IMG/VR virus record: IMGVR_UViG_3300020420_000671
From: a virus
Taxonomy: Duplodnaviria > Caudoviricetes
DNA: 64,000 nt
Direction: 5' to 3' (one strand)
Positions 6,806-31,592 of this stretch are shown one piece after another (positions within the stretch are counted from its first letter, which is position 1; every line of letters starts with the position of its first letter). Under the pieces are notes generated by a model. It made no database searches. It worked only from the letters and a program-made list of their open reading frames with translations, and was not told the origin of the DNA. Both the position numbers and the translations under genes were made by a program.

Positions 6806-6884
6806 TGATATCAGATACAGAAACAATGTTATTAACATTAGTACTAGGTGGACTATTTTATGCCTACCTATGCTGGAAAAATTT

Positions 6885-7655
6885 ATGAAACTTACACTAA
6901 TAGGATTTGGCTTCGTAGGCAAAGCAGTACATAACTTACTACAAGAACATTACGATGTAAAAGTAGTGGATCCTCAGTATAATAAAAATACAATTACGGA
7001 TGATTCAGATGGTTATATTGTTTGTGTTCCTACTCCAAGTTCACCTAACTTACATGCTTGTGATATGAGCATTGTTTGGGAGGTAGTGAAAGAGTGTCCT
7101 GACGATAAACCAATTTTAATTAAAAGCACAATTAGTTTAGAAGGTTATGAAGAAATCAAGAATTGGAACAAAAGAATTACTTTTAGTCCAGAATTTCTAA
7201 CAGCCGCAAATGCTAATGAAGATTTTAAAAATCAAAAAGATATGTTGTTCGGTGGATATGACACTGACTTTTGGTATGACATATTTATTTTAGTAAAAGG
7301 ATTCAAACCAACGTATGGTACAATAGAAGAACTTATTATGGCAAAGTATCTACGTAATAGTTTTTTAGCTACTAAGGTAGCCTTTTTCAATGAAGTATAT
7401 GATTTTTGTAAAGCAACAAATATTAGTTACGAAAGTGTTGCTGAACTAGTGGGAATGGACAATAGAATAACTAGAAATCACATGAAGGTTCCTGGTCCAG
7501 ATGGTAGTAGAGGATTTGGTGGTGCTTGTTTTCCTAAGGATACTAAAGCACTCTTACATACTTTTTCAACTTACAATAAACCGTTTACTATACTTAAAGA
7601 AGTAGTAGACTCAAACGAAAGGACAATTGATGAACATTCTGATAACAGGACATGA
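6885..7655 (+). CDS. ugd: UDP-glucose/GDP-mannose dehydrogenase family protein (short form)
   Basis: GFGFVG Rossmann motif, SPEFL, KYLRNSFLATKVAFFNE, GFGGACFPKD catalytic Cys motif. Confidence 0.88.
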   Translation: MKLTLIGFGFVGKAVHNLLQEHYDVKVVDPQYNKNTITDDSDGYIVCVPTPSSPNLHACDMSIVWEVVKECPDDKPILIKSTISLEGYEEIKNWNKRITFSPEFLTAANANEDFKNQKDMLFGGYDTDFWYDIFILVKGFKPTYGTIEELIMAKYLRNSFLATKVAFFNEVYDFCKATNISYESVAELVGMDNRITRNHMKVPGPDGSRGFGGACFPKDTKALLHTFSTYNKPFTILKEVVDSNERTIDEHSDNRT

Positions 7656-8346
7656 GGGATTCATAGGAACCGAGTTATGGAAAAAACTATCCACTAAACA
7701 TGATCTAATGGGATTAGATATAAAGAGTGGGGACGACATATTAACCTGCGATTTGCCTCACCCTAGTGTTGTAGAAGTGGTAATACATTTGGCAGGCATA
7801 GGAGGTGTGAGAGAAAGTCTAGCTGACCCACAAAAGTATTGGAATAACAATGTAGAAGGCACTAAAAGACTGCTCAATTACTATCCTAATGCTAGAATAT
7901 GTGTTGCTGGATCAAGTTCGCAATATGAACCACATCTAAATCCTTATGCGGCAAGTAAGAATGCTATAGAATATATTCCACATGATAATTGTTGTTTTAT
8001 GAGATTTCATACAGTATACGGTCCTGTACCAAGAGCAAACATGTTTTTTGATAAACTGCTTAACAACAAATTAGAATACGTAACACATCACAAAAGAGAC
8101 TTTATACATATTGAAGATTTATGTGATGCTATAGAAATTATAATGAACAGTAAAACTGTAGGATCATTAGATGTTGGAACCGGAGTATCTGTAAGTATCC
8201 AAGACATTAGGCCGGATCTACCTGTAAAACTAAATACTGTTGGTGAAAGAAAAATCACACAGGCAAATACAAAACAACTTCGAGATTTAGGTTTTAGATA
8301 TAAACACACAGTAGAAGGCTTTTTAAAAGAAAGAGGCATAAAATGA
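7630..8346 (+). CDS. NAD-dependent epimerase/dehydratase (extended SDR)
   Basis: ITGHEGFIG, HLAG, YAASK, RDFIHIED. Confidence 0.88.
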   Translation: MNILITGHEGFIGTELWKKLSTKHDLMGLDIKSGDDILTCDLPHPSVVEVVIHLAGIGGVRESLADPQKYWNNNVEGTKRLLNYYPNARICVAGSSSQYEPHLNPYAASKNAIEYIPHDNCCFMRFHTVYGPVPRANMFFDKLLNNKLEYVTHHKRDFIHIEDLCDAIEIIMNSKTVGSLDVGTGVSVSIQDIRPDLPVKLNTVGERKITQANTKQLRDLGFRYKHTVEGFLKERGIK

Positions 8347-8750
8347 AAATAGGCTTTACTTGTTCTACATTTGATTTACTACACGCAGGCCATGTTATAA
8401 TGTTGAGAGAGGCAAAACAACAATGCGACTTTTTAATTTGTGGTCTACAAGTTGATCCTAGTTTAGATAGAAAAGATAAAAATCCCCCCGTACAAACACT
8501 AGTAGAAAGATACAGTCAACTACATGCCTGTAAGTATGTAGATGAAATAATCCCTTATCAAACAGAAAAAGATTTAGAAGATATTTTGGAAATGTATGCC
8601 ATTGACGTAAGAATTTTGGGTGAAGAATACATAGAAAAAGAATTTACAGGTAAAGATATCTGTGAGAAAAGAGGTATACAACTATACTTCAATACAAGAG
8701 ATCACCGTTTTAGCAGTAGTGATCTAAGAAAAAGAGTAAAAAACTGTTGA
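8343..8750 (+). CDS. Cytidylyltransferase, TagD/RfaE-like
   Basis: FDLLHAGH (HxGH) and RFSSS motifs, 135 aa. Confidence 0.88.
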   Translation: MKIGFTCSTFDLLHAGHVIMLREAKQQCDFLICGLQVDPSLDRKDKNPPVQTLVERYSQLHACKYVDEIIPYQTEKDLEDILEMYAIDVRILGEEYIEKEFTGKDICEKRGIQLYFNTRDHRFSSSDLRKRVKNC

Positions 8751-8794: not shown

Positions 8795-9529
8795 ATGAAA
8801 GATATTTTACAAGATGTAGTCGCAAAAACACATGCCCTTGGGTTCCTTAACTTGGTTAAGGTGACAGGCGATGACACATCAACAACAATTGAATCAATGG
8901 CTGAAGACAGAAGTGTGATTCTCACTGCCAACACTAAAGACAAGGTAGAAGAGTTTGGTGCTAATGTTTTCGGTATGCCTAACATGGATAAGTTGGCTTT
9001 ACATTTAAAAAATCCAGAGTATCAAAAGAACAGTAAACTTACAATTACTAAAGCACAAAGAAATGGTGTTGAAGTTCCTACTGGAATACATTTTGAAAAT
9101 GAAGCTGGAGACTTCCAGAATGACTTTAGATTTATGGTAGCAGAAATCATAAATGAAAAACTTAAAAGTGTTAAATTTAAAGGGGCGTCTTGGGACGTGA
9201 ACTTTACTCCGTCTTTAGCATCTATTACTAGAATGAAATTACAGAGTGCGGCACACACAGAAGAAACTGTGTTTACTGTAAAAGTAGAAGACAAAGACTT
9301 GATGTTTTACTTTGGTGATGCTAATACACACGCAGGTAAATTTGTTTTCCAGAATGCTATTGAAGGAGATCTAAAACATACTTGGGCTTATCCGGTAGCA
9401 CAGGTACAAGCTATACTTAATCTGGATGGGACAATAACAATGTCGCTCAGTGATCAAGGAGCAATGCAGATTGCTGTCGATAGTGGAATGGCAACTTACA
9501 ATTACATATTGCCAGCACAAAGTAAATAG
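8795..9529 (+). CDS. Probable sliding clamp / polymerase processivity factor
   Basis: 244 aa, repeated beta-alpha-beta pattern, C-terminal YNYILPAQ; replication context; not motif-proven. Confidence 0.55.
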   Translation: MKDILQDVVAKTHALGFLNLVKVTGDDTSTTIESMAEDRSVILTANTKDKVEEFGANVFGMPNMDKLALHLKNPEYQKNSKLTITKAQRNGVEVPTGIHFENEAGDFQNDFRFMVAEIINEKLKSVKFKGASWDVNFTPSLASITRMKLQSAAHTEETVFTVKVEDKDLMFYFGDANTHAGKFVFQNAIEGDLKHTWAYPVAQVQAILNLDGTITMSLSDQGAMQIAVDSGMATYNYILPAQSK

Positions 9530-9536
9530 GAGGTTT

Positions 9537-9743
9537 ATGACCGAAACAGACGAAAACTTAAGATCAGAAGATACAAGTTATGAAAATGAACAAAGTATGG
9601 TAACAATACCCCTAAAAGAATATGACAAGTTGAAGGGAAGATCTAAATACATTACTGATAGAGATCTTATCAGTTGTATAGACAAGATAGAAGAACTTGT
9701 TAGAGCTTTAAGGAAACACATAGTAAGGACGGACTTAGATTGA
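9537..9743 (+). CDS. Hypothetical protein
   Basis: AGGAGG RBS then ATG at 9537. Confidence 0.65.
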   Translation: MTETDENLRSEDTSYENEQSMVTIPLKEYDKLKGRSKYITDRDLISCIDKIEELVRALRKHIVRTDLD

Positions 9744-11200
9744 ATACTAACCTAACCAACGAACAAAAGGACTACGCAATATTTTTGCCAGCATTGAGCG
9801 GCTTTTTTGCGACCTTTGTCGGAAAACAACGTAAGGAAGAATACGTAGAAAAAACACGTATTCCTAAATGCTTCCCCAATGAGGTTGAAAGTTTAAACTG
9901 GCTTAACCCTAGTAAGTCTATGTTCAATTATCATTGGAGTTTGTATTCAGCGGGTCATGCTGATCTTGACGTAAACAAAGATGCTCCCAAGGAAGATATG
10001 GTTAGAGATAGAGATCATAAGAACAGTTGGTTGTTAGGTGACTCGGGTGGTTTTCAAATTGGTAAAGGTGTATGGGAAGGTGACTGGAAAGATCCTAATT
10101 GTCCTAAGGCAAAGAAGAAACGTGAACAAGTGCTTACATGGATGGATGCCTATATGGATTATGGAATGATACTTGATATTCCAGCTTGGGTATCAAGATC
10201 AGAAGCAGGACAAAAAGCAACAGGAATAACAACTTATCAAGAAGCAGTCAATGCCACACGTATAAACAATGATTACTTTATGAAAAACCGTAATGGTAAC
10301 TGTAAGTTTTTAAATGTTTTACAAGGTGAAAATCATGCTGATGCTGAAGATTGGTATCAACAAATGAAAGACTATTGTGATCCTGTAAAATATCCTAACA
10401 CACATTTTAATGGTTGGTCCATGGGAGGACAAAACATGTGTGATATTCATCTAGTTTTGAAAAGATTGGTAGCACTACGTTTTGATGGTTTACTGGAAAA
10501 AGGTGTACATGACTTCATGCACTTCTTAGGCACATCTAAGTTAGAATGGGCTACCCTATTAACAGATATACAAAGAGCAGTTAGAAAATATCACAACGAA
10601 AACTTTACAATTACTTTTGATTGTGCTTCTCCATTTCTTGCTACTGCTAACGGACAGTTATACATACAAACAGAAACACAAGACAGAACAAAATGGGTCT
10701 ACAGAATGGTGCCTAGCATAGATGACAAGAAATATGCCAGTGACACAAGAATATTCAAGGATGCTGTTTTACAAGATGGTATATTTAAAAATTTTACAGA
10801 CAGTCCTGTGACTAAGGACTTGTTAGTAAAAGACGTTTGTATATATGCTCCAGGTGATTTGAATAAAATAGGCAAGGAAGGAAAGACTAGTTGGGATAGT
10901 TTTAGTTATGCTATACAAATGGCACACAACGTTTGGAGCCATATAAATGCGGTACAAGAAGCGAATAGACAATATGACTCAGGTATAACTCCAGCAATGC
11001 TTATAGATGAATCCTTTGATAGAATTTTATTTAGAGATGTTATTGAAGCAATTTTTGCTACATCTAATAGAGATGAAGCTGAAGCAGTAATAGAAGAATT
11101 CAGTAGATTCTGGATATCAATTATAGGTACACGAGGTGCCGTTGGTAAAAAGACAGTGAATGCTTCTACACAATTTGGAAACCTATTCGAGGAGGTATAA
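9740..11200 (+). CDS. tRNA-guanine transglycosylase-fold protein, probably a DNA deazaguanine transglycosylase (DpdA-like)
   Basis: LGDSGGFQ, MILDIP, NVLQG, MHFLG and FDCASP are TGT-like; TTG start; clustered with folE/queE. Confidence 0.75.
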   Translation: MNTNLTNEQKDYAIFLPALSGFFATFVGKQRKEEYVEKTRIPKCFPNEVESLNWLNPSKSMFNYHWSLYSAGHADLDVNKDAPKEDMVRDRDHKNSWLLGDSGGFQIGKGVWEGDWKDPNCPKAKKKREQVLTWMDAYMDYGMILDIPAWVSRSEAGQKATGITTYQEAVNATRINNDYFMKNRNGNCKFLNVLQGENHADAEDWYQQMKDYCDPVKYPNTHFNGWSMGGQNMCDIHLVLKRLVALRFDGLLEKGVHDFMHFLGTSKLEWATLLTDIQRAVRKYHNENFTITFDCASPFLATANGQLYIQTETQDRTKWVYRMVPSIDDKKYASDTRIFKDAVLQDGIFKNFTDSPVTKDLLVKDVCIYAPGDLNKIGKEGKTSWDSFSYAIQMAHNVWSHINAVQEANRQYDSGITPAMLIDESFDRILFRDVIEAIFATSNRDEAEAVIEEFSRFWISIIGTRGAVGKKTVNASTQFGNLFEEV

Positions 11201-11201
11201 T

Positions 11202-11384
11202 ATGGGGACTGGAAGAGCTAGTAAAAGAGCTAAGAAACTACAAAATCTACACAACTATTTCCACAATAAAGTAGAACAAGTAGAGATTGAAAGAAACGGC
11301 GATAGAACTTGGCAAACAAAGGAACATCTTATTAGATTAAAAAAACAAAAATTAGCAATCAAAGATAGGTTACAGAATGAATAG
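11202..11384 (+). CDS. Small coiled-coil protein (DUF465-like)
   Basis: GGAGG RBS; LKKQKLAIKDRL motif. Confidence 0.55.
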   Translation: MGTGRASKRAKKLQNLHNYFHNKVEQVEIERNGDRTWQTKEHLIRLKKQKLAIKDRLQNE

Positions 11385-11922
11385 AGATTACGAAAACGGA
11401 CAACAAAACGATATAGATTACTTTGTAGGAAGAGAAGTAGAAAAAACTCCAGCCTATGATAAGAATACTTTGTTTGTAGTAGGCATAAAACCTGTGAAAG
11501 ATGTGTTAAAATTAGCAACAAGAAATGATTGCGATCATGTTTATTTAGGAGCAAATCAAAGTTTTCATCTTACAGGAGAATCTGGTACAGAAGAAGAAAG
11601 CCAAGGTTGGGACAATTTGGTCACAGAACTACTTAAAGCAGGACTTTGGGTAACATTGGATTATGATGTAAGATATCATGATTATGTAATAGAAAGCGGA
11701 TACAACGAAAATGACAACTTTATAAGCATGATATCAGTAAAACTACCACACGTTAACCAATTGAACTATAACGCATGTATTAAGTTAGATGATGTTGATT
11801 TCAAAGCTACAAATCCAGGTGTTTGGGTATCATATGTACAAGAACATTTGGATAGAAAAAAATTTACAGATTGGGAAAAATATACCAAAGATCTGCCAAT
11901 TAAGGTTGACAGTGAGCATTAA
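11377..11922 (+). CDS. Hypothetical protein embedded in the deazaguanine cluster
   Basis: 181 aa, coupled between the TGT-like and T-fold genes. Confidence 0.7.
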   Translation: MNRDYENGQQNDIDYFVGREVEKTPAYDKNTLFVVGIKPVKDVLKLATRNDCDHVYLGANQSFHLTGESGTEEESQGWDNLVTELLKAGLWVTLDYDVRYHDYVIESGYNENDNFISMISVKLPHVNQLNYNACIKLDDVDFKATNPGVWVSYVQEHLDRKKFTDWEKYTKDLPIKVDSEH

Positions 11923-11934
11923 AGGTAGTATACT
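11906..11934 (+). promoter_or_regulatory. Sigma70-type promoter
   Basis: TTGACA-17 nt-TATACT. Confidence 0.7.
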
Positions 11935-12021
11935 ATGTTTGGAAATGTTGAATATTCAGAACCAGAGCGATATTATGATTGGATGCTTTGGAAAATGAGA
12001 CAAGAAAGAGAAGAGGCAAAT

Positions 12022-12408
12022 ATGAAAACAAAAGCAAAAAGAATGATTTGGGTAACTTTTAGAAAAGAAGGTATCCACAAATATCCGGCGGCATTAGATG
12101 ATCCTAAATTAGCTACAGGTGACGAGTATGATGTTTCATTTTTAGGATATCCACATAGACATATATTTCATTTTAAAGTAGGTATTACTGTAACACACAA
12201 CGATAGAGATATTGAGTTTATACAATTTAAAAGATGGATGGAGAAACTTTACGCAGAAAAAACACTAGAACTAGATTATAAGTCATGTGAAATGATGGCT
12301 GATGATTTGTACGATAAGGTTACAGAAAAGTATCCTAACAGAGAAGTACATATTGATATTTCAGAGGACGGTGAGAACGGTGCTCACATTGAATACCCTA
12401 GCTACTAG
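12022..12408 (+). CDS. QueD-paralogue T-fold protein (DpdL-like)
   Basis: LGYPHRHIF, SCEMMA and EDGENGA; lacks the canonical QueD Cys..HGH. Start 12022 chosen because the ATG at 11935 abuts the -10 box. Confidence 0.7.
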   Translation: MKTKAKRMIWVTFRKEGIHKYPAALDDPKLATGDEYDVSFLGYPHRHIFHFKVGITVTHNDRDIEFIQFKRWMEKLYAEKTLELDYKSCEMMADDLYDKVTEKYPNREVHIDISEDGENGAHIEYPSY

Positions 12409-12421
12409 AAGGAGAAACAAA

Positions 12422-12679
12422 GTGAAACAGGGTGACTACTTCGTTAAGAATCCAGAGATTGTAAAAATCTTTGACGATTTAGAACAATACAAAAAGTTTT
12501 GCCAAATTGCTTTTGGCTATGGCCATGACGGCTATGTTTTTAATGAGAAAGACCTTTACAATGACAAAAGTCGTGCCTGGCGTGCCTTTTGTAATTTTAG
12601 AAAAGGCAAAAAACGTCCTTACTTTAAAAAGTTTGATAAAAAATTTCAAGGACGTTATTATAGTAAAAGGAGACACTAG
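12422..12679 (+). CDS. Basic hypothetical protein
   Basis: AAGGAG RBS, GTG start, coupled to the GT gene. Confidence 0.55.
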   Translation: MKQGDYFVKNPEIVKIFDDLEQYKKFCQIAFGYGHDGYVFNEKDLYNDKSRAWRAFCNFRKGKKRPYFKKFDKKFQGRYYSKRRH

Positions 12680-13746
12680 TGACGATTTATATAGTAGATA
12701 TTGAAGCAGTTGATACACGTTATACAAAACAATGGAAAGAGCATCTTCCCTCTCAACTAAGACAATCTACTAACCATAAAGTTGTTACTATAAGTGGCGG
12801 AGATACTCCCCAGGCAACAACACCTGGGGCGTTTCTTAACTTTGGTGGTACTAACGTATACAAAAGTAAACAGTTAGAACAGATAGGAGAAATGTTTTGT
12901 AAAGGTGAAGTTAAAAAAGGTGATTACTTTCTTTATACTGATGCTTGGAATCCTACTGTTATACAATTACGTTACATGTCAGAACTATTAGGAGTTCCAA
13001 TTAGAATTGGAGGACTATGGCATGCCGGTTCATATGATCCACAAGACTTTTTAGGTAGATTGATAGGTGATAAACCTTGGGTAAGACATGCTGAAAGAAG
13101 TATGTATGCTTGTTTTGATGATAACTTTTTTGCCACACAGTTTCATATTGATATGTTTCTTGATACGTTTAAACATAAAGGAAGTGACCTCCAATGGATA
13201 CAAGTAGATGAATCTAAAGTAAAGAAAGTTGGCTGGCCAATGGAGTATCTAAAAGATAGTTTAACTTCTTATAGAAAGATGGACAAAATAAATTCTATAG
13301 TATTTCCACATAGACTTGCTCCAGAAAAACAAATTGACATTTTTAAAGATCTAAGAGAAAGTATGCCAGAATATGAGTTTGTAATATGTCAAGAAAGACA
13401 ACTGACAAAGAATGAATATCATAACATACTAGGCGAAGCTAAAATTGTTTTTAGTGCTAACTTACAAGAAACTTTGGGAATAAGTTGGTATGAAGGAGTA
13501 ATAGTAGGTGCCCTTCCACTAGTTCCTGATAGATTAAGTTATAGTGAAATGGCTACACAAGATTTTAAATATCCTAGCATTTGGACTAAGAACTTTGAAC
13601 AGTATCAAAGATACAAACCGCAGTTGATAGCAAAAATAAAAGACCTAATGGAATACTATGATGAATATTTAGGGCCATTAGAAAAACAACGTTTACAACT
13701 TAAAAAGTTTTTTGATGGTGAAAAGTTATACGGGAGTATAAAGTAA
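12679..13746 (+). CDS. GT-B fold glycosyltransferase (GT4-like)
   Basis: FPHRLAPEKQ and QETLGISWYEG (E-x7-E) donor-binding motifs. Confidence 0.75.
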   Translation: MTIYIVDIEAVDTRYTKQWKEHLPSQLRQSTNHKVVTISGGDTPQATTPGAFLNFGGTNVYKSKQLEQIGEMFCKGEVKKGDYFLYTDAWNPTVIQLRYMSELLGVPIRIGGLWHAGSYDPQDFLGRLIGDKPWVRHAERSMYACFDDNFFATQFHIDMFLDTFKHKGSDLQWIQVDESKVKKVGWPMEYLKDSLTSYRKMDKINSIVFPHRLAPEKQIDIFKDLRESMPEYEFVICQERQLTKNEYHNILGEAKIVFSANLQETLGISWYEGVIVGALPLVPDRLSYSEMATQDFKYPSIWTKNFEQYQRYKPQLIAKIKDLMEYYDEYLGPLEKQRLQLKKFFDGEKLYGSIK

Positions 13747-14093
13747 TGGGCGACGATCATAAAATTACAATTAATATTAGCAATCCGGAGGACAACTATT
13801 CTACTTATATTACTAGTGGAACCTCAACGATCGCTCCTAGTTTTAACATAGATGATTTAAATGATACTGGCTCAGAATATGCTATAAACACAGATTACAC
13901 TTATACTACAGACGGTTTTGATATTAGTATGCCTGGTATAGACAATAGCCCAGACACTTGGCCTGCTGAGTATAGAGTAAAGGAAATGATTGAAAAGTAT
14001 CCAGCTTTGAAAATACAATATGAAAAATTTTTAGAGATTTATAATTTAATTAAAGATGACCATAAGGACAATTTGGATGACATTCTTAAGTAA
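13746..14093 (+). CDS. Hypothetical acidic protein
   Basis: 115 aa ORF with TAATG coupling. Confidence 0.6.
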   Translation: MGDDHKITINISNPEDNYSTYITSGTSTIAPSFNIDDLNDTGSEYAINTDYTYTTDGFDISMPGIDNSPDTWPAEYRVKEMIEKYPALKIQYEKFLEIYNLIKDDHKDNLDDILK

Positions 14094-14586
14094 GTTTATG
14101 GATAAAATAGGAAGACGCAGAGTAATTACAGATAGGACTGGGAAGATTCCTTATCTTATAAGATACTATGTGTTTCTAAAAGATAGAAAACATTTTCCGT
14201 TCAACATAACCTTACATAAGGTTTTAGTAAGTGATGAACCTAAACTACATGACCATCCTTGGAACTGGGGAGCAGTAATATTGAAAGGTGGTTATTGGGA
14301 ACACATTCCTATTAGATCAATGGAAGGAGCAGTAGTTGGTAGCACAAGAGAATGGAGAGGTCCTGGGCACATTAGATTTAGAAAAGCAGAAGACTTACAT
14401 TGGTTAGAATTAGAAAAGGATAAGGACGGTAATGAAATACCTTGTGTCAGTTTATTCTTGATGGGTAAGAAACGTAAAGAATGGGGATTTGTAGACTGGT
14501 TTCCAGCAACAGAGAAAAACTGGAGAAACGCAGGTTATAGATGGGTACATAATGAAACATACTTAAAGGAAAGGCAGAATGGTTAA
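14077..14586 (+). CDS. Cupin-superfamily protein
   Basis: LHKV..SD..LHDHPW..ILKGGYWE and LHWLEL cupin metal motifs. Confidence 0.6.
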   Translation: MTFLSKFMDKIGRRRVITDRTGKIPYLIRYYVFLKDRKHFPFNITLHKVLVSDEPKLHDHPWNWGAVILKGGYWEHIPIRSMEGAVVGSTREWRGPGHIRFRKAEDLHWLELEKDKDGNEIPCVSLFLMGKKRKEWGFVDWFPATEKNWRNAGYRWVHNETYLKERQNG

Positions 14587-15112
14587 AAAGCATTACTACA
14601 CTTGGAAAGATGTAGAAAGAAGTTGTATTAGCATCGTTAATCAAATGTATACTGACCAGTGGCGACCAGATTACATTGTTGGTATTACAAGAGGTGGTAA
14701 TATTCCTGCTACGATAATTTCAAACATGACAGGAATACCATGTGAAGCAATTAAAGTAAGTCTTAGAGATGACAGCAAATTAGAAAGCAATACTAGAATG
14801 GCAATGGATGCCTATGGCAAATTTCAACAAGGACAAAACAAAAACGAAGGAAAAAACATTTTAATTGTTGATGATATAAATGACACAGGAGCAACGTTCA
14901 ATTGGATAGTAGATGATTGGGAAAGAAGTTGTAATCCTGGTGATACAGAATGGAGAAACGTTTGGTGTGAAAATGTACGTTTCGCAGTAATAACAGATAA
15001 CTCAGCAAGTGATTTTAAATTTATGGTAAATTATTCAACACATGAAGTGAATAAAAAAGAAGAAGACATTTGGTTAGTTTACCCTTGGGAAAGGGTAGGC
15101 ACATATGATTGA
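14579..15112 (+). CDS. Type I phosphoribosyltransferase (xanthine/guanine PRT-like)
   Basis: GITRGG, ILIVDDINDTGAT PRPP-binding loop, VYPWE. Confidence 0.88.
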   Translation: MVKKHYYTWKDVERSCISIVNQMYTDQWRPDYIVGITRGGNIPATIISNMTGIPCEAIKVSLRDDSKLESNTRMAMDAYGKFQQGQNKNEGKNILIVDDINDTGATFNWIVDDWERSCNPGDTEWRNVWCENVRFAVITDNSASDFKFMVNYSTHEVNKKEEDIWLVYPWERVGTYD

Positions 15113-15689
15113 ACATCAATTAATTTTTCCTACACAGGTATTTAGAGCCCAGTATCAACCTGCTAATGAATTACAAAGGACTGTGGTACCAATATTATTA
15201 GAACAAGAGAAAAATGATCAAAAACCTTTAAAGTATACTGCTAACGGATATACTGACTATGGTAGAGAAAACTTATTAGAAAGACCCGTGTTTAAAGACT
15301 TGAAAGAGTTCATTGATGATGTAGTGGTGCGTTGTCATAAACAGACAGGCTTACAAAACACACCGTCACTTAAAAGCAGTTGGTTTAGTATTAACCGTAA
15401 ATACACATATCACGAAGAGCATAATCATCTTCCAGACACATGGAGCGGAGTATATTATATACAAGCAGATAGAGATCATCCAGGGCTTACTTTGGTTAAT
15501 CCTAACATGAAATCAAACTGGCCTGGTACATATGGTAGAGCAGAATTGAACGATGTTAATTCATCAAGTGTTACTTGTGCGGCATTTACAGGAAGCCTAA
15601 TAGTATTTCCAAGCCATTTACATCACAAAGTAGAACAACAAACAGTAGATAAAGAACGTATAATGGTGGCATTTAATTATGGATTCTAA
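15105..15689 (+). CDS. Putative 2OG-Fe(II) oxygenase
   Basis: HNH..WSGVYYI, IVFPSHLHHKV, RIMVAFN. Confidence 0.8.
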   Translation: MIEHQLIFPTQVFRAQYQPANELQRTVVPILLEQEKNDQKPLKYTANGYTDYGRENLLERPVFKDLKEFIDDVVVRCHKQTGLQNTPSLKSSWFSINRKYTYHEEHNHLPDTWSGVYYIQADRDHPGLTLVNPNMKSNWPGTYGRAELNDVNSSSVTCAAFTGSLIVFPSHLHHKVEQQTVDKERIMVAFNYGF

Positions 15690-16014
15690 ACCTTGGACAG
15701 ATATTTTGATTGATACGAGAGATTATACAGTTTATAGAGACAAGTATCCAGTAACAGAAGGACACATACTTTTTGTACCCAAAGAACAAACCTTTGAAGC
15801 AATACAAAAATGCTATAAAGCCGCATACGGCTGGGGTTATGAATGGGTAGAAAAAGGTTACTGTGATGCTTATAATGTTGGACAAAATGTAGGCAAGGAA
15901 GCAGGTCAAACTGTTCCTTATCCACATATCCATCTCATCCCACGTCGCAAGGGTGATATGGAAGATCCAAGAGGAGGAGTGCGACACGTGATCCCTGAAA
16001 AGGGAAGATATTAG
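15679..16014 (+). CDS. HIT-family nucleotide hydrolase
   Basis: GHILFVPK, GQTVPYPHIHLIPR histidine triad. Confidence 0.9.
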   Translation: MDSKPWTDILIDTRDYTVYRDKYPVTEGHILFVPKEQTFEAIQKCYKAAYGWGYEWVEKGYCDAYNVGQNVGKEAGQTVPYPHIHLIPRRKGDMEDPRGGVRHVIPEKGRY

Positions 16015-16017
16015 GAG

Positions 16018-16239
16018 GTGAAAATGAAGCCAGGTGATGCTCTATTAGTTGCGGCTAGAAAACAAGCAGAAGGTGAAATTGCGGTACATCTTGCTAACAT
16101 TGAAGTTTACAAAACAATGCCAGCAGGTATTGGTGAACATTCAGATGTTACAGAAGCAGTTATCGCAGAGCTTGATAAGTTAGCGGCGGCTGATGACCGG
16201 TTAGAAATGCTTGACAAGTACTTCAAAGATAATGACTAA
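16018..16239 (+). CDS. Small conserved hypothetical protein
   Basis: AGGAGG RBS; GIGEHSD motif. Confidence 0.65.
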   Translation: MKMKPGDALLVAARKQAEGEIAVHLANIEVYKTMPAGIGEHSDVTEAVIAELDKLAAADDRLEMLDKYFKDND

Positions 16240-17059
16240 AACATTATTCTTGGGTGACAGCCATTCACATGGTTACTTCGAAATGGGTGGAAAAGTCCAC
16301 GCATGGGAAAGCAATAACTATGCTGAAATATACGCCAGAGATAATGACAAACAAACTGTAATTTACAGTATTCCAGGCGGGTGTAATAGAAAGTATCCTG
16401 CCTGGTTAAAATCAATGCTTGATAGATATCAAGACATAGATGAAGTATTTGTTCAATCAACTTACTGGAATAGATTTTTATTATCCTGCTCAAGAGACTT
16501 AGGAGTCGGAGAGGAAACTGATTCTAGCCTGTACCTGGACGAAGACCAACCTAAAGACGAACTAATTGATAGATACACAGATCATAGAATAACAGATGGT
16601 TATATAGAAATGATCGAACAAACAAGGAAAGAAAACTATGAAGAATTCAAAGGATTTGCTTTTAATGATATGAAAGTTGGACATGATTTTAAAACATTCC
16701 ATGAAAAATATTCTTATACAAAACTATGGCATGAATTGGTTACACCATTACAGTATAAAGACTATTGTATCGATCTTTATGCCATAGATAATATGTGTAA
16801 GGAAAGAAACATAAAATGGTATCTTTGGAGTATAAATGATAGGGTATTCGTTCCTGAAAATATCAATTACTATGGAAAGCTATCTTGTATTAGAGCGCCT
16901 ATGAGTGCTGAATCTTTTTTCAAAACTAAGATGGATTTGGATATTGAAACGGATCATTATAGACTTGATGGTGAACATTACATTAGAGAAATACACAATA
17001 AGATAGCTAGAGACTATATTGGTTATTTAAAGGATCCTAATTATGAAATTAAGACTTGA
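16232..17059 (+). CDS. SGNH/GDSL-like hydrolase or acyltransferase
   Basis: N-terminal LFLGDSHSHG, C-terminal DGEH. Confidence 0.55.
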   Translation: MTKTLFLGDSHSHGYFEMGGKVHAWESNNYAEIYARDNDKQTVIYSIPGGCNRKYPAWLKSMLDRYQDIDEVFVQSTYWNRFLLSCSRDLGVGEETDSSLYLDEDQPKDELIDRYTDHRITDGYIEMIEQTRKENYEEFKGFAFNDMKVGHDFKTFHEKYSYTKLWHELVTPLQYKDYCIDLYAIDNMCKERNIKWYLWSINDRVFVPENINYYGKLSCIRAPMSAESFFKTKMDLDIETDHYRLDGEHYIREIHNKIARDYIGYLKDPNYEIKT

Positions 17060-17084
17060 CAAAAACCTAAATAAAGTATATAAT
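17056..17084 (+). promoter_or_regulatory. Sigma70-type promoter
   Basis: TTGACA-17 nt-TATAAT upstream of folE. Confidence 0.85.
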
Positions 17085-17127
17085 AAACAGAAATGGCAAT
17101 CCACTGCCTTAACATCGGAGATGAAAA

Positions 17128-17817
17128 TTGGATAAAAGTGAAGAAATTATTAAAAGACTGCGTGATGCCAACATTAGGTATTGGGCAGGTGATAATATTA
17201 GTGAAGTACTAAAACAAGGTGACAAGGAAGCCTTAATTGAAGAACTTACTCCAAAGTTTGAAACAGTACTAGACAGTTTAATTATTGATCGTTATAATGA
17301 TCCTAACAGTAAAGACACTGGTAGACGATTAGCAAAAATGTATATCAATGAAATAATGAGTGGTAGGTATGAGCCTATGCCAAACGCAACTGCTTTTCCT
17401 AACCACGTAGATGATGGTTACAAAGGAATGTTGGTTGTGCGAAGCGAAATAAAAAGTATGTGTTCGCATCATCATCAACCTGTAAATGGTGTGGCATACA
17501 TAGGTATCATTGCCGCAGAAACACTAATAGGACTTTCTAAGTATACACGTATAGCTCAATGGTGTGCTAGAAGAGGAACATTACAAGAAGAACTAAACAA
17601 TGTAATTGCTAACGAAATACAAAAAGCAACAGGTAGTTCAAACATAGGTGTCTATTTACAAGCAACACATGGTTGTTGTGAAAATAGAGGTATAGGTGCT
17701 CATAGTAGTTTAACACAGACTACTGTACTACGTGGAGCATTTAATGAGGATCCAGGAACTAAAAAGGAGTTTATGGACAATATTAAACTACAACAAGAAT
17801 TTGCTTGTGGAAAATAG
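17128..17817 (+). CDS. folE: GTP cyclohydrolase I
   Basis: SMCSHHHQP, GLSKYTR, LQE, HGCCENRG; TTG start after GGAG. Confidence 0.95.
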   Translation: MDKSEEIIKRLRDANIRYWAGDNISEVLKQGDKEALIEELTPKFETVLDSLIIDRYNDPNSKDTGRRLAKMYINEIMSGRYEPMPNATAFPNHVDDGYKGMLVVRSEIKSMCSHHHQPVNGVAYIGIIAAETLIGLSKYTRIAQWCARRGTLQEELNNVIANEIQKATGSSNIGVYLQATHGCCENRGIGAHSSLTQTTVLRGAFNEDPGTKKEFMDNIKLQQEFACGK

Positions 17818-17827
17818 AAAGGATAAC

Positions 17828-18028
17828 ATGAATCATTTTTCAGTTAGTATAGTTAAAAGTATTTTTAGAATCGTAGCAGGTGGATTATTATCCTATGGAG
17901 GCTACGTTTTTTGGTCGGCAAATATGTACAGTGATATCTTTATAGCAGACAGTGGGTTTGTAATAATGTTATCAGGTGGAGCATTTGTCATAGCAGAAGC
18001 ATTAGGTATAATAGAGGAGATAGTGTAA
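17828..18028 (+). CDS. Small membrane protein
   Basis: Two hydrophobic segments. Confidence 0.55.
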   Translation: MNHFSVSIVKSIFRIVAGGLLSYGGYVFWSANMYSDIFIADSGFVIMLSGGAFVIAEALGIIEEIV

Positions 18029-18141
18029 TGAAGTTAAGCGAATTTAGAAAAAAGTTCGGTGAAGGTACAGATTTTGATCTTGACTATGGTAAACTTTTTA
18101 TTATAGCAATTTGTATTTACATTGCGATTAAGGTCAGCTAA
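18028..18141 (+). CDS. 37 aa membrane miniprotein
   Basis: Hand translation MKLSEFRKKFGEGTDFDLDYGKLFIIAICIYIAIKVS; GAGGAG RBS; fills the gap exactly. Confidence 0.55.
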   Translation: MKLSEFRKKFGEGTDFDLDYGKLFIIAICIYIAIKVS

Positions 18142-18144
18142 GAT

Positions 18145-19047
18145 ATGGACAAGGCAGAAAAGAAAGTATATTACAGTGAAATATTCCACTCTATTCAGGG
18201 AGAAGGACACTATACAGGTGTGCCTACTGCTTGGATACGTTTCTTTCTGTGTAACCTACAATGTAGTGGCTTTGGACAGATAGATCCTACAAATCCAGAA
18301 ACATATGATCTTCCGTTTTTAGATTATGATGTAAGTCAAGTAGAAAGAGTAGAAGACTTGCCTGTGTGGGAAAAAGGTTGTGATAGTTCTTACACTTGGG
18401 CAAAAAAATACAAACATCTTATGGGACATGAAGTTCCTAGTGTATTGGCAAACAAGATTGTAGATATACTAAGAACAGATTCGAATCCAGAAGGTTTGTT
18501 TTTACATCCTGTGAGTAAACAAAGACAACACTTATGTTTTACAGGCGGCGAACCCTTAATGATTACTGGACAGACAGCAAGTGTTGGCATTTATGAGGAA
18601 CTTGAAAAATTAGGTAACTTGCCTAGTTCAATGACTTTTGAAACTAACGGTACACAAAAGTTGAGAGATCCTTTTAAAGAATGGGTGAAAAGAATAGATG
18701 AAGAAGTATTCTTTAGTTGTAGTCCTAAACTGTTTACTGTGAGTGGAGAAGAAGCTAAAAAAGCAATTATACCAGAAGTAGTAGGTGAGTATGCTGATCT
18801 TTCTAATAAAGGACAATTAAAATTTGTTGTAGGTTCTGAACAACGACAATGGGATGAAATGGAATCTGTTGTAGAAAAATTTAAAGCACAAGGTGTTGAT
18901 TGGCCAATATGGGTTATGCCTGTAGGAGCCAGAGAAGAAGAACAGAGTGCGACAGCAGGTGATGTAGCAAAAATGGCTTTCCAAAGAGGATATAATGTAG
19001 CGGCAAGAGTACATGTATACTTGTTTGGAAACGCAATTGGAACGTAA
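18145..19047 (+). CDS. queE: 7-carboxy-7-deazaguanine synthase (radical SAM)
   Basis: YSEIFHSIQGEG, WIRF..CNLQC..GCDS, FTGGEPL, FETNGT, SPKL, RVHVYL. Confidence 0.9.
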   Translation: MDKAEKKVYYSEIFHSIQGEGHYTGVPTAWIRFFLCNLQCSGFGQIDPTNPETYDLPFLDYDVSQVERVEDLPVWEKGCDSSYTWAKKYKHLMGHEVPSVLANKIVDILRTDSNPEGLFLHPVSKQRQHLCFTGGEPLMITGQTASVGIYEELEKLGNLPSSMTFETNGTQKLRDPFKEWVKRIDEEVFFSCSPKLFTVSGEEAKKAIIPEVVGEYADLSNKGQLKFVVGSEQRQWDEMESVVEKFKAQGVDWPIWVMPVGAREEEQSATAGDVAKMAFQRGYNVAARVHVYLFGNAIGT

Positions 19048-19057: not shown

Positions 19058-19447
19058 ATGAAAGATATCATTAATAAGATAAAAGGTCTTGGCAAAAAGA
19101 AAAAAGAAGTAAAGAAACCTCTTAGTGCTGAAGAAGAAAGAAGAGCAGTATTAGCCAAAGAAAAGGAAGAAGCATCTAAGAAAGGTGAACCTTGGGTTGG
19201 TGTATTAGATACAAAAGTAAATCCAGATAACATCAAAAATGGTTTTTTCGAGCTTGATTGGAATAATGAATTTATTGAACAATTACTCGATGCTGGCTAT
19301 ACTGGCGAATCAAATGAGCAAATTGTTGATGCTTGGTTCAAAACTATTGCTAGGCAAGTGCTTGAAGATGGTGGAGAAGACCCAGATAGAAATGCTGGTT
19401 TTATAGACACTACTAAAATTGATGAAAAGAAAACAAAAGTTTCTTGA
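19058..19447 (+). CDS. Conserved phage hypothetical protein
   Basis: AGGAGG RBS; EPWVGV..GFFELDWN. Confidence 0.7.
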   Translation: MKDIINKIKGLGKKKKEVKKPLSAEEERRAVLAKEKEEASKKGEPWVGVLDTKVNPDNIKNGFFELDWNNEFIEQLLDAGYTGESNEQIVDAWFKTIARQVLEDGGEDPDRNAGFIDTTKIDEKKTKVS

Positions 19448-19472
19448 CAAATTACACAATAGAAAGTATAGT
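19444..19472 (+). promoter_or_regulatory. Sigma70-type promoter producing a probable leaderless mRNA
   Basis: TTGACA-17 nt-TATAGT with ATG 6 nt after the -10 box. Confidence 0.75.
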
Positions 19473-19478
19473 AATACT

Positions 19479-20465
19479 ATGACTTACATATTAGTAGATA
19501 CAGCAAATACATTTTTTCGAGCTAGACACGTAATACGTGGAGATTTAGAAACTAAAATTGGTATGGCATTACATATCACGTTAGGTGGTATACGTAAAGC
19601 ATATCAGGACTTTGAAGGTGCTCATGTTGTATTCTGCTTAGAAGGTCGTAGTTGGCGTAAGGATTATTATGAGCCTTACAAAAGAAATAGAAGTGATGCT
19701 CGTGCGGCACAGACAGAAAGAGAACAAGAAGAAGATAAAGTGTTCTGGGAAATATTTGATGAGTTTAATAAGTTTGTAAGTAACAAAACAAATTGTTCTG
19801 TATTACATCACCCTACTTTAGAAGCAGATGATTTGATCGCAGGTTGGATACAAGCACACCCTAATGATAATCATGTTATTATATCAACCGATGGTGACTT
19901 CGGACAACTTATTGCTCCTAATGTAAGTCAATACAATGGCGTACAAAATACTATTATTACACACGAAGGATACTTTGATGATAAGAAAAGATTGCCTGTG
20001 ATAGATAAAAAGACAGGCAAAGAAAAGCCTGCTCCAGATCCTGAATGGTTATTGTTTGAAAAGTGTATGAGAGGTGACACAAGTGATAATGTGTTTAGTG
20101 CTTATCCTGGTGTAAGAACAAAAGGCACAAAAAATAAAGTAGGCTTGTTAGAAGCATACGCAGATAGAAAAAGTAAAGGATTTAATTGGAATAATCTAAT
20201 GTTACAACGTTGGATGGATCACAAAGGAGAAGAACATAGAGTTCTTGACGATTACAATAGAAATGTTGTTCTGTGTGATTTATCAGCACAGCCTGGTAAC
20301 GTTAGGTCAATTATAAATGACGTAGTAGAAGATGCTATGGAACAACCGAAAAGCATATCACAAGTTGGATTACATCTTATGAAGTTCTGTGCTAAACATG
20401 ACCTACAAAAGATAGCAGATAATGTTCAACAATATGCTGAACCACTACAGGCAAAATACTCATAG
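19479..20465 (+). CDS. rnh: 5'-3' exonuclease / T4 RNase H-like (PIN fold)
   Basis: ILVD, YKRNR, EADDLIA, STDGDFGQL, GDTSDNV. Confidence 0.9.
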   Translation: MTYILVDTANTFFRARHVIRGDLETKIGMALHITLGGIRKAYQDFEGAHVVFCLEGRSWRKDYYEPYKRNRSDARAAQTEREQEEDKVFWEIFDEFNKFVSNKTNCSVLHHPTLEADDLIAGWIQAHPNDNHVIISTDGDFGQLIAPNVSQYNGVQNTIITHEGYFDDKKRLPVIDKKTGKEKPAPDPEWLLFEKCMRGDTSDNVFSAYPGVRTKGTKNKVGLLEAYADRKSKGFNWNNLMLQRWMDHKGEEHRVLDDYNRNVVLCDLSAQPGNVRSIINDVVEDAMEQPKSISQVGLHLMKFCAKHDLQKIADNVQQYAEPLQAKYS

Positions 20466-23087: not shown

Positions 23088-23101
23088 TAGCACTGGGAGT
23101 T

Positions 23102-23133: not shown

Positions 23134-23136
23134 CAC

Positions 23137-31587: not shown

Positions 31588-31592
31588 TACGT

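What the first reader, a model, noticed from the sequence alone, without database searches (positions are those of the whole stretch)
8795..19047. Candidate new DNA hypermodification system: 7-deazaguanine pathway without QueC, plus glycosyltransferase and tailoring enzymes
Seen: a TGT/DpdA-like gene directly behind the clamp-like gene, then a T-fold QueD paralogue, GT-B glycosyltransferase, cupin, PRTase, 2OG oxygenase, HIT, SGNH protein, FolE and QueE, all under sigma70 promoters. Known: FolE-QueD-QueE make 7-carboxy-7-deazaguanine (CDG), QueC is needed for preQ0, and phage DpdA inserts deazaguanines into DNA to block restriction. No QueC, QueF or Gat-QueC is in the window. Inference: the base derives from CDG and is further oxidised, glycosylated or acylated, giving a deazaguanine derivative outside the set I know (dPreQ0, dPreQ1, dG+, dADG, dCDG, dDG and methyl/formyl forms).
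Basis: partly seen in the sequence, partly recalled or inferred. Interest (0 to 1): 0.88.

Follow-up and report, generated by a model that had tools for sequence, protein, structure and literature searches.

The report
Deazaguanine DNA-modification cluster with conserved glycosyltransferase
A very abundant marine giant phage carries a gene set for replacing guanine in its DNA with 7-deazaguanine, a known way of escaping bacterial restriction enzymes, and a sugar-transferring enzyme always travels with that gene set, so the final base may carry a sugar that nobody has yet described.

Summary

**What the cluster is**
- Lack of QueC is not new. The "QueD paralogue" is a DpdL homologue (motif LGYPHRHIF). 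DpdL is the proposed 7-carboxy-7-deazaguanine decarboxylase of Cellulophaga phage phiST, whose DNA carries plain 2'-deoxy-7-deazaguanine (dDG).
- So this is a DpdL-type, QueC-independent 7-deazaguanine system: FolE, QueE, DpdL and a TGT-fold DpdA-like enzyme. No true QueD lies in the window.

**What looks new**
- A GT4-like glycosyltransferase lies beside DpdA or DpdL in this marine lineage and in Pseudomonas PA5oct, Acidovorax ACP17, Xanthomonas X1 and Synechococcus BUCT-ZZ01. It is also near DpdL in Sinorhizobium Phosso and Burkholderia BCSR5. phiST lacks it.
- A 181-aa orphan protein occurs only in phages with that trio.
- A purine phosphoribosyltransferase is strongly enriched in DpdL phages.
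- The papers I could read do not mention these links.

**What is not specific**
- The cupin and HIT genes are not specific to deazaguanine phages.
- The 2OG oxygenase and SGNH genes are variable accessories within the lineage.

**Open question**
- PA5oct DNA is known to carry an undefined G modification, so a glycosylated deazaguanine is plausible (about 0.4) but unproven.

Other first-stage notes of this scan flagged the same stretch. None had been followed up.

The parts
9740..11200 (+). DpdA-like DNA-guanine transglycosylase, 486 aa. TGT-fold TIM barrel with catalytic motifs GDSGGFQ (D101) and FDCASP (D294). It has no CxCxxC..H zinc site.
   Evidence: AF2 model has pLDDT 92.4. All top 50 PDB Foldseek hits are TGT, E about 1e-6. 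Viral hits include the Achromobacter phage Motura TGT and the Vibrio phage nt-1 protein. hhalign: 96% to ACP17 gp123 and the X1 TGT; 90% to E. coli Tgt with both Asp motifs aligned. D101, S102, G104 and D294 are invariant in 45 diverse homologues.
11377..11922 (+). 181-aa acidic orphan protein ('o181'); a system-specific partner of unknown fold.
   Evidence: No Pfam, PHROG or NCBIfam hit, and no Atlas relative. Present in 73 of 80 related marine loci. Among 50,697 phage records, homologues occur only in the PA5oct group and ACP17. In ACP17 it is gp122, directly upstream of DpdA.
12022..12408 (+). DpdL homologue, a T-fold QueD paralogue and proposed CDG decarboxylase. The ORF is open from 11935; the likely start is the ATG at 12022.
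   Evidence: It carries the DpdL signature LxxxHRHxF as LGYPHRHIF (definition in PMC10516641). tblastn: phiST CGPG_00067 at 32% and E 5e-10; ACP17 gp125 at 56%; PA5oct gp166 at 58%. HMM hits in nine phage lineages. A promoter-like site at 11906-11934 overlaps the upstream ATG.
12679..13746 (+). GT4-like (GT-B fold) glycosyltransferase, 355 aa, with a conserved E264-x7-E272 motif and an HR..PEKQ motif.
   Evidence: AF2 model has pLDDT 83. PDB top hits are BshA, MshA, glycogen synthase and PglA. Swiss-Prot AFDB hits are all GT4. Atlas features point to Glycos_transf_1. Motifs are conserved in PA5oct, ACP17, X1 and BUCT-ZZ01 homologues. It lies adjacent to DpdA or DpdL in those phages.
14579..15112 (+). 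6-oxopurine-type phosphoribosyltransferase, 177 aa.
   Evidence: PF00156. Nearest solved structures are archaeal purine PRTases, HGPRT and XGPRT. Only 9 phage records hold a homologue, and 6 of them are DpdL phages: the phiST group and BUCT-ZZ01. In BUCT-ZZ01 it sits between QueE and QueD. A weak homologue, PA5oct gp163, lies inside that phage's cluster.
17128..17817 (+). GTP cyclohydrolase I (FolE).
   Evidence: PF01227, E 1e-37. NCBIfam FolE models hit at E 8e-40 but below the equivalog cut-off. 39% identical to phiST FolE.
18145..19047 (+). QueE-like radical SAM enzyme (CDG synthase). The cluster-binding cysteines are split by an insertion of about 35 aa.
   Evidence: phrog_2076, E 4e-53. 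Weak NCBIfam QueE hits. Alignment with PA5oct gp162, ACP17, phiST, X1 and BUCT QueE shows conserved QGEG, CNLxC, GCDS and TGGEP motifs.
14056..14586 (+). Cupin-like protein. It is core in the marine lineage but not specific to deazaguanine phages.
   Evidence: phrog_4786 'cysteine dioxygenase', E 1e-27. 87 phage records hold a homologue, mostly actinophages. None found in the PA5oct, ACP17, X1, BUCT or phiST loci.
15105..15689 (+). 2OG-Fe(II) oxygenase; a variable accessory gene.
   Evidence: PF13759. Present as a close homologue in only a minority of related loci.
15679..16014 (+). HIT-family nucleotide hydrolase or transferase. It is core in the marine lineage but not specific to deazaguanine phages.
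   Evidence: PF01230. PDB relatives are Fhit and Hint. The 66 phage records with a homologue are mostly actinophages.
16211..17059 (+). SGNH/GDSL-like protein (DUF6071-like); a variable accessory gene.
   Evidence: Atlas features score 0.95-0.98 to DUF6071/GDSL clusters. GDS and DxxH motifs are present. In many related loci it is only 25-30% identical or absent.
8795..9529 (+). 244-aa conserved protein upstream of DpdA. The 'clamp-like' label is unverified.
   Evidence: phrog_12062, unknown function. Syntenic with PA5oct gp170, annotated as a structural protein. No PDB hit with profile A4.
6870..8750 (+). Three sugar/alcohol-nucleotide genes: a Ugd-like dehydrogenase lacking the C-terminal domain, an SDR epimerase/dehydratase, and a small cytidylyltransferase. 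They are possible donor supply for the GT but are not conserved with the system.
   Evidence: Pfam hits. The cytidylyltransferase is nearest to ethanolamine-phosphate and glycerol-3-phosphate cytidylyltransferases. The genes are present in only some related loci. The PA5oct 'cytidyltransferase' is unrelated.

Best explanation
This is a QueC-independent, DpdL-type 7-deazaguanine DNA-modification system. It belongs to a globally abundant marine jumbo-phage lineage distantly related to Pseudomonas phage PA5oct.

Proposed steps (all inferred from homology; none shown experimentally here):
1. FolE (17128-17817), a QueD encoded elsewhere in the genome, and QueE (18145-19047) convert GTP to 7-carboxy-7-deazaguanine (CDG).
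2. DpdL (12022-12408) removes the carboxyl group to give 7-deazaguanine. This activity is proposed in the literature and has never been demonstrated.
3. The TGT-fold DpdA-like enzyme (9740-11200) swaps the base for guanine in phage DNA after replication.
4. The purine PRTase (14579-15112) most likely converts the released guanine to GMP. That would pull the exchange forward and refill the GTP pool that feeds FolE.

The GT4-like glycosyltransferase (12679-13746) and the 181-aa orphan (11377-11922) are genuine extra components, specific to the branch of the family with a long-form DpdA. Their most likely role is to add a sugar to the deazaguanine, either as free base or in DNA. That step is a hypothesis.

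The cupin, HIT, 2OG oxygenase and SGNH genes are lineage accessories with no demonstrated link to the base.
For: Gene identities:
- The DpdA-like protein has the TGT fold and both catalytic Asp motifs.
- The T-fold gene carries the DpdL signature and is homologous to phiST CGPG_00067.
- FolE and QueE are supported.

Absence of QueC and location of QueD:
- No QueC, QueF or QueD was found in the window.
- No QueC was found in the complete PA5oct genome or in four partial marine relatives.
- A true QueD lies elsewhere in relatives: about 60 kb away in G001, and at 169-172 kb beside FolE in PA5oct.

Published precedent:
- phiST, with DpdA3, DpdL, FolE, QueD and QueE and no QueC, has dDG replacing all G (PMC10516641).
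- PA5oct DNA resists G-containing restriction sites and is attacked by nucleases that sense modified G (PMC12191111).

Conservation:
- In the related marine loci, counts of complete homologous ORFs (of 80 loci, many of which are truncated): o181 73, DpdL 67, GT 62, cupin 53, PRT 52.
- GT adjacency: PA5oct has DpdA-GT-DpdL; ACP17 has o181-DpdA-GT-DpdL-QueE; X1 has GT-DpdA-DpdL-QueE; BUCT-ZZ01 has DpdA-DpdL-GT.
- o181 homologues occur only in PA5oct-group phages and ACP17.
- PRTase homologues are concentrated in DpdL phages.
Against: - No chemistry has been measured for this phage or for any GT-bearing relative.
- DpdL decarboxylase activity has never been shown. DpdL plus DpdA of phiST or ACP17 gave no dDG in E. 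coli (PMC10516641).
- The DpdA-like protein lacks the TGT zinc site and has no significant sequence hit to Pfam TGT.
- 7-deazaguanine offers no hydroxyl for a sugar, so the acceptor atom is unclear.
- The GT family is acidic to neutral (pI 5.5-6.5) and looks more like small-molecule GT4 enzymes than like T4 DNA glucosyltransferase, which was absent from the top 50 hits.
- QueD was not seen in the window itself.
Confidence: 0.72

Rival explanations
1. Plain dDG is the end product. The system works exactly as in phiST. The GT4-like enzyme and o181 serve something else, such as glycosylating another target, acting on a pterin or precursor, or a structural role. No new base exists.
For: - phiST and Vibrio phage VP1 reach full dDG substitution, and phiST does so without this GT.
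- 7-deazaguanine has no obvious glycosyl acceptor.
- The GT resembles small-molecule GT4 enzymes, including a tetrahydrobiopterin glucosyltransferase at rank 27.
- A distant GT relative in Xanthomonas phage PhiXhv-15 sits in a context without deazaguanine genes.
Against: - The GT is immediately adjacent to DpdA or DpdL in at least five unrelated phage lineages, and its catalytic motifs are conserved.
- DpdA plus DpdL of ACP17 alone failed to give dDG in E. coli, which is consistent with missing partners.
Confidence: 0.4
2. Nucleotide-level route. As in tubercidin and toyocamycin biosynthesis, the PRTase attaches ribose phosphate to CDG or 7-deazaguanine. DpdL and the HIT enzyme would act on nucleotides, and the modified dNTP would be built in by the phage polymerase. 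The DpdA-like enzyme would be auxiliary.
For: - Tubercidin gene clusters lack QueC and combine CDG synthesis with a PF00156 PRTase and a decarboxylase (bioRxiv 10.64898/2026.04.15.718813).
- The PRTase is enriched in DpdL phages and lies inside the BUCT-ZZ01 cluster.
- Full G replacement in phiST would be easy to reach through the dNTP pool.
- HIT and a GMP-reductase-like gene (29586-30632) are in the window.
Against: - A DpdA homologue is present in every lineage examined.
- ACP17 and X1 show no PRTase in their clusters.
- The GMP-reductase-like gene is absent from all ten relatives searched.
- HIT is not specific to these phages.
- No dGTP-clearing enzyme was identified in the cluster.
Confidence: 0.12
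3. The cluster does not modify DNA. The TGT-fold enzyme would act on host or phage tRNA, or FolE, the T-fold protein and the GT4 enzyme would make a pterin glycoside as an auxiliary metabolite.
For: - TGT enzymes are tRNA enzymes by default.
- Cyanobacterial pteridine glycosyltransferases are GT4 enzymes working downstream of FolE and PTPS (PDB 9v0l appears).
Against: - The cluster sits in the replication module between the DNA polymerase and the 5'-3' exonuclease.
- QueE commits the pathway to deazapurines.
- The relative PA5oct has G-specific restriction resistance.
- The T-fold protein lacks the QueD/PTPS catalytic Cys motif.
Confidence: 0.05

Closest known systems
Cellulophaga phage phiST dDG system (DpdA3, DpdL, FolE, QueD, QueE; Cui, Hutinet et al., NAR 2023, PMC10516641)
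   Same: - No QueC.
- A DpdL with the LxxxHRHxF motif, plus FolE and QueE.
- A TGT-superfamily transglycosylase.
- A homologous purine PRTase elsewhere in the genome.
   Different: - phiST DpdA3 is short (259 aa) and only marginally similar to the window's 486-aa enzyme (hhalign 68%; Foldseek E 2e-3).
- phiST has no GT4-like gene and no o181 homologue.
- phiST has a MazG-like gene in its cluster.
Pseudomonas phage PA5oct (Wroclawvirus) gp168-gp162 cluster
   Same: - Syntenic order: DNA polymerase, gp170, DpdA-like gp168 (36% identity), GT gp167 (44%), DpdL gp166 (58%), PRT-like gp163, QueE gp162, exonuclease gp159.
- No QueC.
- FolE, QueD and o181 lie elsewhere in the genome.
- G-specific restriction resistance has been shown (PMC12191111).
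   Different: - No cupin, HIT, 2OG oxygenase or SGNH genes in the cluster.
- Different host and GC content.
- The chemistry of its base is also unknown.
Acidovorax phage ACP17, Xanthomonas phage X1 and Synechococcus phage BUCT-ZZ01 clusters (T4-like phages)
   Same: The same long DpdA, GT4-like and DpdL trio next to QueE, FolE and QueD.
   Different: - Gene order differs.
- o181 is found only in ACP17; the PRTase only in BUCT-ZZ01.
- These are not jumbo phages.
Huimycin HuiG and vertebrate tRNA-queuosine mannosyltransferase (QTMAN)
   Same: Both are GT4-type enzymes that put a sugar on a 7-deazaguanine derivative.
- HuiG adds GlcNAc to the 2-amino group of the free base (PMC7439116).
- QTMAN appears among the structural hits at rank 22.
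   Different: - No specific sequence relationship to either was shown.
- Their acceptors carry groups (preQ0-derived base, queuosine diol) that plain 7-deazaguanine lacks in part.
- Neither acts on DNA.
T4 alpha/beta-glucosyltransferases
   Same: Phage-encoded GT-B enzymes that decorate a modified DNA base after replication.
   Different: - Not among the top 50 structural matches.
- Their acceptor is hydroxymethylcytosine, and no dCMP hydroxymethylase is present here.

Membership tests
TGT/DpdA superfamily (nucleic-acid guanine transglycosylases) | TGT-type TIM-barrel fold | tested here: met
   AF2 model has pLDDT 92.4. All top 50 PDB hits are TGT (prob 1.0, TM by target up to 0.57). Viral TGT/DpdA hits.
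TGT/DpdA superfamily (nucleic-acid guanine transglycosylases) | Two catalytic aspartates, in the DSGGFQ and FDC(V/A)xP motifs | tested here: met
   D101 and D294 are invariant in 45 homologues. hhalign aligns them with the corresponding motifs of E. coli Tgt.
TGT/DpdA superfamily (nucleic-acid guanine transglycosylases) | C-terminal zinc site CxCxxC...H of bacterial TGT | tested here: not met
   The C-terminal half has a single Cys and no CxCxxC. Significant sequence matches to Pfam TGT and to PDB TGT chains are also absent.
TGT/DpdA superfamily (nucleic-acid guanine transglycosylases) | Exchange of guanine in DNA for a 7-deazaguanine base | not testable with these tools
   Needs an enzyme assay, or DNA mass spectrometry with and without the gene.
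DpdA3 subfamily (phiST, CP220) | Specific similarity to phiST CGPG_00065 | tested here: inconclusive
   hhalign gives 68% over 116 columns. Foldseek E 2.4e-3 is weaker than to the nt-1, Motura and ACP17-type long enzymes. I do not file it as DpdA3; it is better described as an unclassified long-form DpdA.
DpdL (proposed CDG decarboxylase) | LxxxHRHxF in place of the QueD motif CxxxHGH | tested here: met
   The motif reads LGYPHRHIF. The definition was read in PMC10516641.
DpdL (proposed CDG decarboxylase) | Homology to phiST CGPG_00067 and ACP17 DpdL | tested here: met
   tblastn gives 32% at E 5e-10 and 56% at E 1e-35. HMM E values are 5e-17 and 3e-47.
DpdL (proposed CDG decarboxylase) | Genomic context with FolE, QueE and DpdA, and without QueC | tested here: met
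DpdL (proposed CDG decarboxylase) | Decarboxylation of CDG to 7-deazaguanine | not testable with these tools
   This has never been shown experimentally, even for phiST.
QueE (CDG synthase, radical SAM) | Radical SAM cysteine triad and SAM-binding motif; family profile match | tested here: met
   phrog_2076, E 4e-53. The CNLQC...GCDS triad with an insertion, and TGGEP, are conserved with phage QueE proteins. NCBIfam QueE models hit only below cut-off.
GT4 / GT-B retaining glycosyltransferases | Two-Rossmann GT-B fold | tested here: met
   The model has pLDDT 83. Hits include BshA, MshA, PglA and glycogen synthase at prob 1.0 and TM about 0.6.
GT4 / GT-B retaining glycosyltransferases | EX7E motif in the C-terminal domain | tested here: met
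   E264-x7-E272 is invariant in 17 marine homologues. It is kept (E or D, then E) in PA5oct, ACP17, X1 and BUCT-ZZ01.
GT4 / GT-B retaining glycosyltransferases | Significant match to Pfam Glycos_transf_1 or Glyco_transf_4 | tested here: not met
   No Pfam hit even at E 10, and no PDB sequence hit with a profile. The assignment rests on fold, motif and language-model features.
T4-type DNA glucosyltransferases | Structural likeness to T4 BGT or AGT | tested here: not met
   Neither enzyme appears in the top 50 PDB matches.
6-oxopurine phosphoribosyltransferases | PRPP-binding type I PRTase domain; nearest relatives are purine PRTases | tested here: met
   PF00156, 51.6 bits. Nearest PDB chains are 1vdm, GpT-1/2, HGPRT and XGPRT. 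Base specificity is not testable here.

The most novel reading that the evidence does not exclude
Phages carrying the long DpdA, GT4-like and DpdL trio may replace guanine with a glycosylated 7-deazaguanine, an undescribed DNA hypermodification. The group includes this cosmopolitan marine jumbo-phage lineage, PA5oct-like therapeutic Pseudomonas phages, ACP17, Xanthomonas X1 and Synechococcus BUCT-ZZ01. The sugar could sit on the 2-amino group, as in huimycin, or on the electron-rich C7 freed by DpdL. The orphan o181 protein would be a further required factor, and the PRTase would close a guanine-recycling loop.
Probability: 0.4. Interest if true: 0.85.

Novelty: new variant of a known kind. 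Interest (0 to 1): 0.66.

Why it matters
- **New base class.** 7-deazaguanine DNA modifications are a main phage counter-defence against restriction and CRISPR. All known members are small substituents at C7. A sugar-bearing purine would be a new chemical class, since glycosylated bases in phage DNA are so far pyrimidines.
- **Abundance.** The lineage is extremely common in seawater. More than 7,900 close homologues of its DpdA were found, in Tara and many other marine metagenomes.
- **Testable now.** The same gene trio sits in PA5oct, a cultured therapy-candidate phage whose G modification is known to exist but is chemically undefined. The question can be settled at once with existing material.
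- **Explains a negative result.** The co-conserved GT and o181 may explain why DpdA plus DpdL alone failed in E. coli.
- **If the product is plain dDG.** The finding would still extend the DpdL system to jumbo phages and add a guanine-salvage PRTase as a recurrent component.

Tried and rejected
**Searches that gave nothing**
- Sequence searches of the DpdA-like protein, the GT and the 244-aa 'clamp-like' protein against Pfam, NCBIfam and PDB sequences, alone and as profiles, found nothing significant. Only structure prediction and profile-profile comparison resolved the first two. 'Clamp-like' stays unverified.
- No whole genome is held for the window. QueC and QueD absence outside the window was therefore tested only in relatives.
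- Complex prediction of the DpdA-like protein with o181 returned no verdict.
- A search for nanopore runs holding the stretch listed none.
- The 2024 MMBR review on 7-deazaguanines and the supplementary tables of the 2023 NAR paper are not held. I could not check how ACP17's DpdA was classified, or whether the neighbouring GT is mentioned there.

**Links that were tested and dropped**
- The GMP-reductase-like gene at 29586-30632 is absent from all ten relatives searched.
- The sugar-nucleotide trio at 6870-8750 is variable in the lineage, and the PA5oct cytidyltransferase is unrelated. It is not a conserved donor supply.
- The cupin and HIT genes are not specific tailoring enzymes. Their homologues are mostly in actinophages without the system.
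- A weak QueC-like hit in marine relative G003 (15.7 bits, below cut-off) is a different PP-loop ATPase and has no homologue in the window.

Full report
**Setting**

The window is AT-rich (about 35% GC) phage DNA. The stretch from 3 to 21 kb is a replication module on the plus strand.
- It holds a family-B DNA polymerase (3015-5687), three sugar-nucleotide genes, the cluster in question, and a 5'-3' exonuclease (19419-20465).
- The 486-aa protein at 9740-11200 has more than 7,900 close homologues in marine metagenomes, on contigs up to 333 kb, and 976 clusters at 50% identity.
- The stretch is held by marine, seawater and ballast-water DNA runs from at least seven studies.
- The only cultured relatives are jumbo phages: the Pseudomonas PA5oct group (36% identity), Sinorhizobium Phosso and a Vibrio phage.
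- PA5oct is syntenic. Its order is DNA polymerase, gp170, DpdA-like gp168, gp167, gp166 ... QueE gp162, exonuclease gp159.

**Checking the genes**

Pfam confirms the PRTase, 2OG oxygenase, HIT and FolE genes. PHROGs supports QueE and the cupin.

The TGT-like protein has no significant sequence match to Pfam or to PDB chains, even as a 45-sequence profile.
- Its AlphaFold model is confident (pLDDT 92.4).
- All 50 best PDB matches are tRNA-guanine transglycosylases.
- Viral matches include annotated phage TGT/DpdA proteins.
- hhalign aligns its invariant GDSGGFQ and FDCASP motifs with the two catalytic aspartate motifs of E. coli Tgt.
- It is homologous to the DpdA of ACP17 and to the annotated TGT of Xanthomonas phage X1 (96% probability), and only marginally to phiST DpdA3.
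- It lacks the zinc site.

I call it an unclassified long-form DpdA.

**The T-fold gene changes the interpretation**

- The T-fold protein carries LGYPHRHIF, which fits the signature LxxxHRHxF. Cui, Hutinet and colleagues used that signature to define DpdL, the proposed CDG decarboxylase of phiST (PMC10516641).
- It hits phiST CGPG_00067 and ACP17 DpdL by tblastn.
- phiST has DpdA3, DpdL, FolE, QueD and QueE, no QueC, and dDG in place of all G.
- A deazaguanine pathway without QueC is therefore a published situation. The expected base is 7-deazaguanine, not a CDG derivative.
- No true QueD is in the window (Pfam scans). Relatives encode it far from the cluster. Another first-stage note places a QueD about 47 kb upstream in this genome; I could not check that.
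- QueC is absent from the complete PA5oct genome.

**The glycosyltransferase**

- The 355-aa protein has no Pfam hit.
- Its model (pLDDT 83) is a GT-B fold. It is closest to GT4 enzymes: BshA, MshA, PglA and glycogen synthase.
- It keeps an EX7E motif.

The important observation is its distribution.
- Homologues lie directly beside DpdA or DpdL in PA5oct (gp167, 44%), ACP17 (gp124, 39%, E 1e-72), Xanthomonas X1 and Synechococcus BUCT-ZZ01 (hhalign 98%). In Sinorhizobium Phosso the homologue is adjacent to DpdL, and in Burkholderia BCSR5 it lies about 3 kb away.
- It was found as a complete ORF in 62 of the 80 related marine loci, many of which end before reaching it.
- phiST and several other DpdL phages lack it near DpdL.
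- The 2019 and 2023 deazaguanine papers contain no mention of a glycosyltransferase.
- The 2023 paper reports that DpdA plus DpdL of ACP17 gave no dDG in E. coli and suggests unknown extra enzymes. In ACP17 the GT lies between exactly those two genes.

**Two more specific partners**

- The 181-aa orphan at 11377-11922 has homologues in only 13 of 50,697 phage records. All are PA5oct-group phages or ACP17, where it is the gene upstream of DpdA.
- The PRTase resembles 6-oxopurine PRTases. It has homologues in only nine phage records, and six of them are DpdL phages.
  - In BUCT-ZZ01 it lies between QueE and QueD.
  - PA5oct gp163 is a weak homologue inside that phage's cluster.
- I read the PRTase as salvage of the guanine released by base exchange.
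- The alternative is phosphoribosylation of the deazapurine, as in tubercidin clusters, which also lack QueC. I kept that as a rival.

**Genes that are not specific**

- Cupin and HIT homologues are mostly in actinophages.
- The 2OG oxygenase and the SGNH protein are variable within the lineage.
- The sugar-nucleotide genes upstream are also variable.

**What the sugar could do**

- GT4-type enzymes that glycosylate 7-deazaguanine derivatives have precedent. HuiG puts GlcNAc on the 2-amino group of the free base (PMC7439116). The tRNA-queuosine mannosyltransferase is among the structural hits.
- PA5oct DNA resists several restriction enzymes in a pattern pointing to modified G. It is also targeted by nucleases that sense modified G, but its chemistry was not determined (PMC12191111).
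- A glycosylated deazaguanine is therefore plausible and directly testable. Nothing here shows it.

**Verdict**

- The system is a new variant of a known kind, the DpdL-type 7-deazaguanine modification. Its conserved GT4-like, orphan and PRTase partners are not mentioned in the papers I could read.

Noticed in passing
window 28889-47316, mostly minus strand: A metabolic island lies here. It contains an AMP-binding enzyme fragment (28889-29599), a GMP reductase/IMPDH-like gene (29586-30632, E 3e-59), three radical SAM proteins (30616-31548, 41382-42233, 45036-46400), a methyltransferase (33786-34409), a class IV aminotransferase (35480-36319), a DegT-type sugar aminotransferase (39552-40631), a carbamoyltransferase (42230-43741) and a spermine-synthase-like gene (43732-44376). 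The GMP-reductase-like gene was not found in ten related phage records.
   Followed up: partly
window 21999-24465: An AAA (MoxR-like) ATPase is followed by a DUF2201 metallopeptidase/VWA-like protein, a recurrent two-gene pair.
   Followed up: no
window 26087-27184: This protein has an N-terminal domain of the major tropism determinant (Mtd_N, E 8.5e-11). Mtd is the target protein of diversity-generating retroelements in Bordetella phage. No reverse transcriptase was looked for.
   Followed up: no
window 18145-19047, and L001, L089, L091: The QueE of this lineage, PA5oct, X1 and BUCT-ZZ01 has an insertion of about 35 aa between the CxxxC pair and the third cluster cysteine. ACP17 QueE has the compact CxxxCxxC.
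   Followed up: partly
L090 (Xanthomonas phage PhiXhv-15) 3861-7095: A distant relative of the GT (25% identity) sits next to a GlmS-like amidotransferase and an LmbE/BshB-like deacetylase in Xanthomonas/Erwinia jumbo phages. No DpdL homologue was found in these phages by tblastn, so this may be a different sugar-based system.
   Followed up: no
L094 (Vibrio phage Bakedbeans) 9221-10372: Here DpdL is the C-terminal part of a 383-aa annotated protein, directly after FolE. It may be a fusion with an unknown N-terminal domain.
   Followed up: no
L082 (marine relative G003, 61783-61947): A 238-aa PP-loop ATPase (SGGxDS motif) resembles QueC weakly (15.7 bits, below cut-off). It lies about 25 kb from the DpdA cluster of a marine relative and has no homologue in the window.
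   Followed up: partly
Same genome, about 122.8 kb before the window start (first-stage note e1-5401364): Another reader reported a 1.6-kb block in which no G is followed by A or G. PA5oct seems to be modified at GA/GG (PMC12191111), so the block could be a region that avoids the DpdA target motif. It lies outside my window and was not checked.
   Followed up: no
PA5oct (NC_071039.1) 168575-171944: FolE lies directly beside two different PTPS/QueD-family genes, about 55 kb from the DpdA-GT-DpdL-QueE cluster. The END-nuclease preprint names a PTPS-family gene (gp230).
   Followed up: partly
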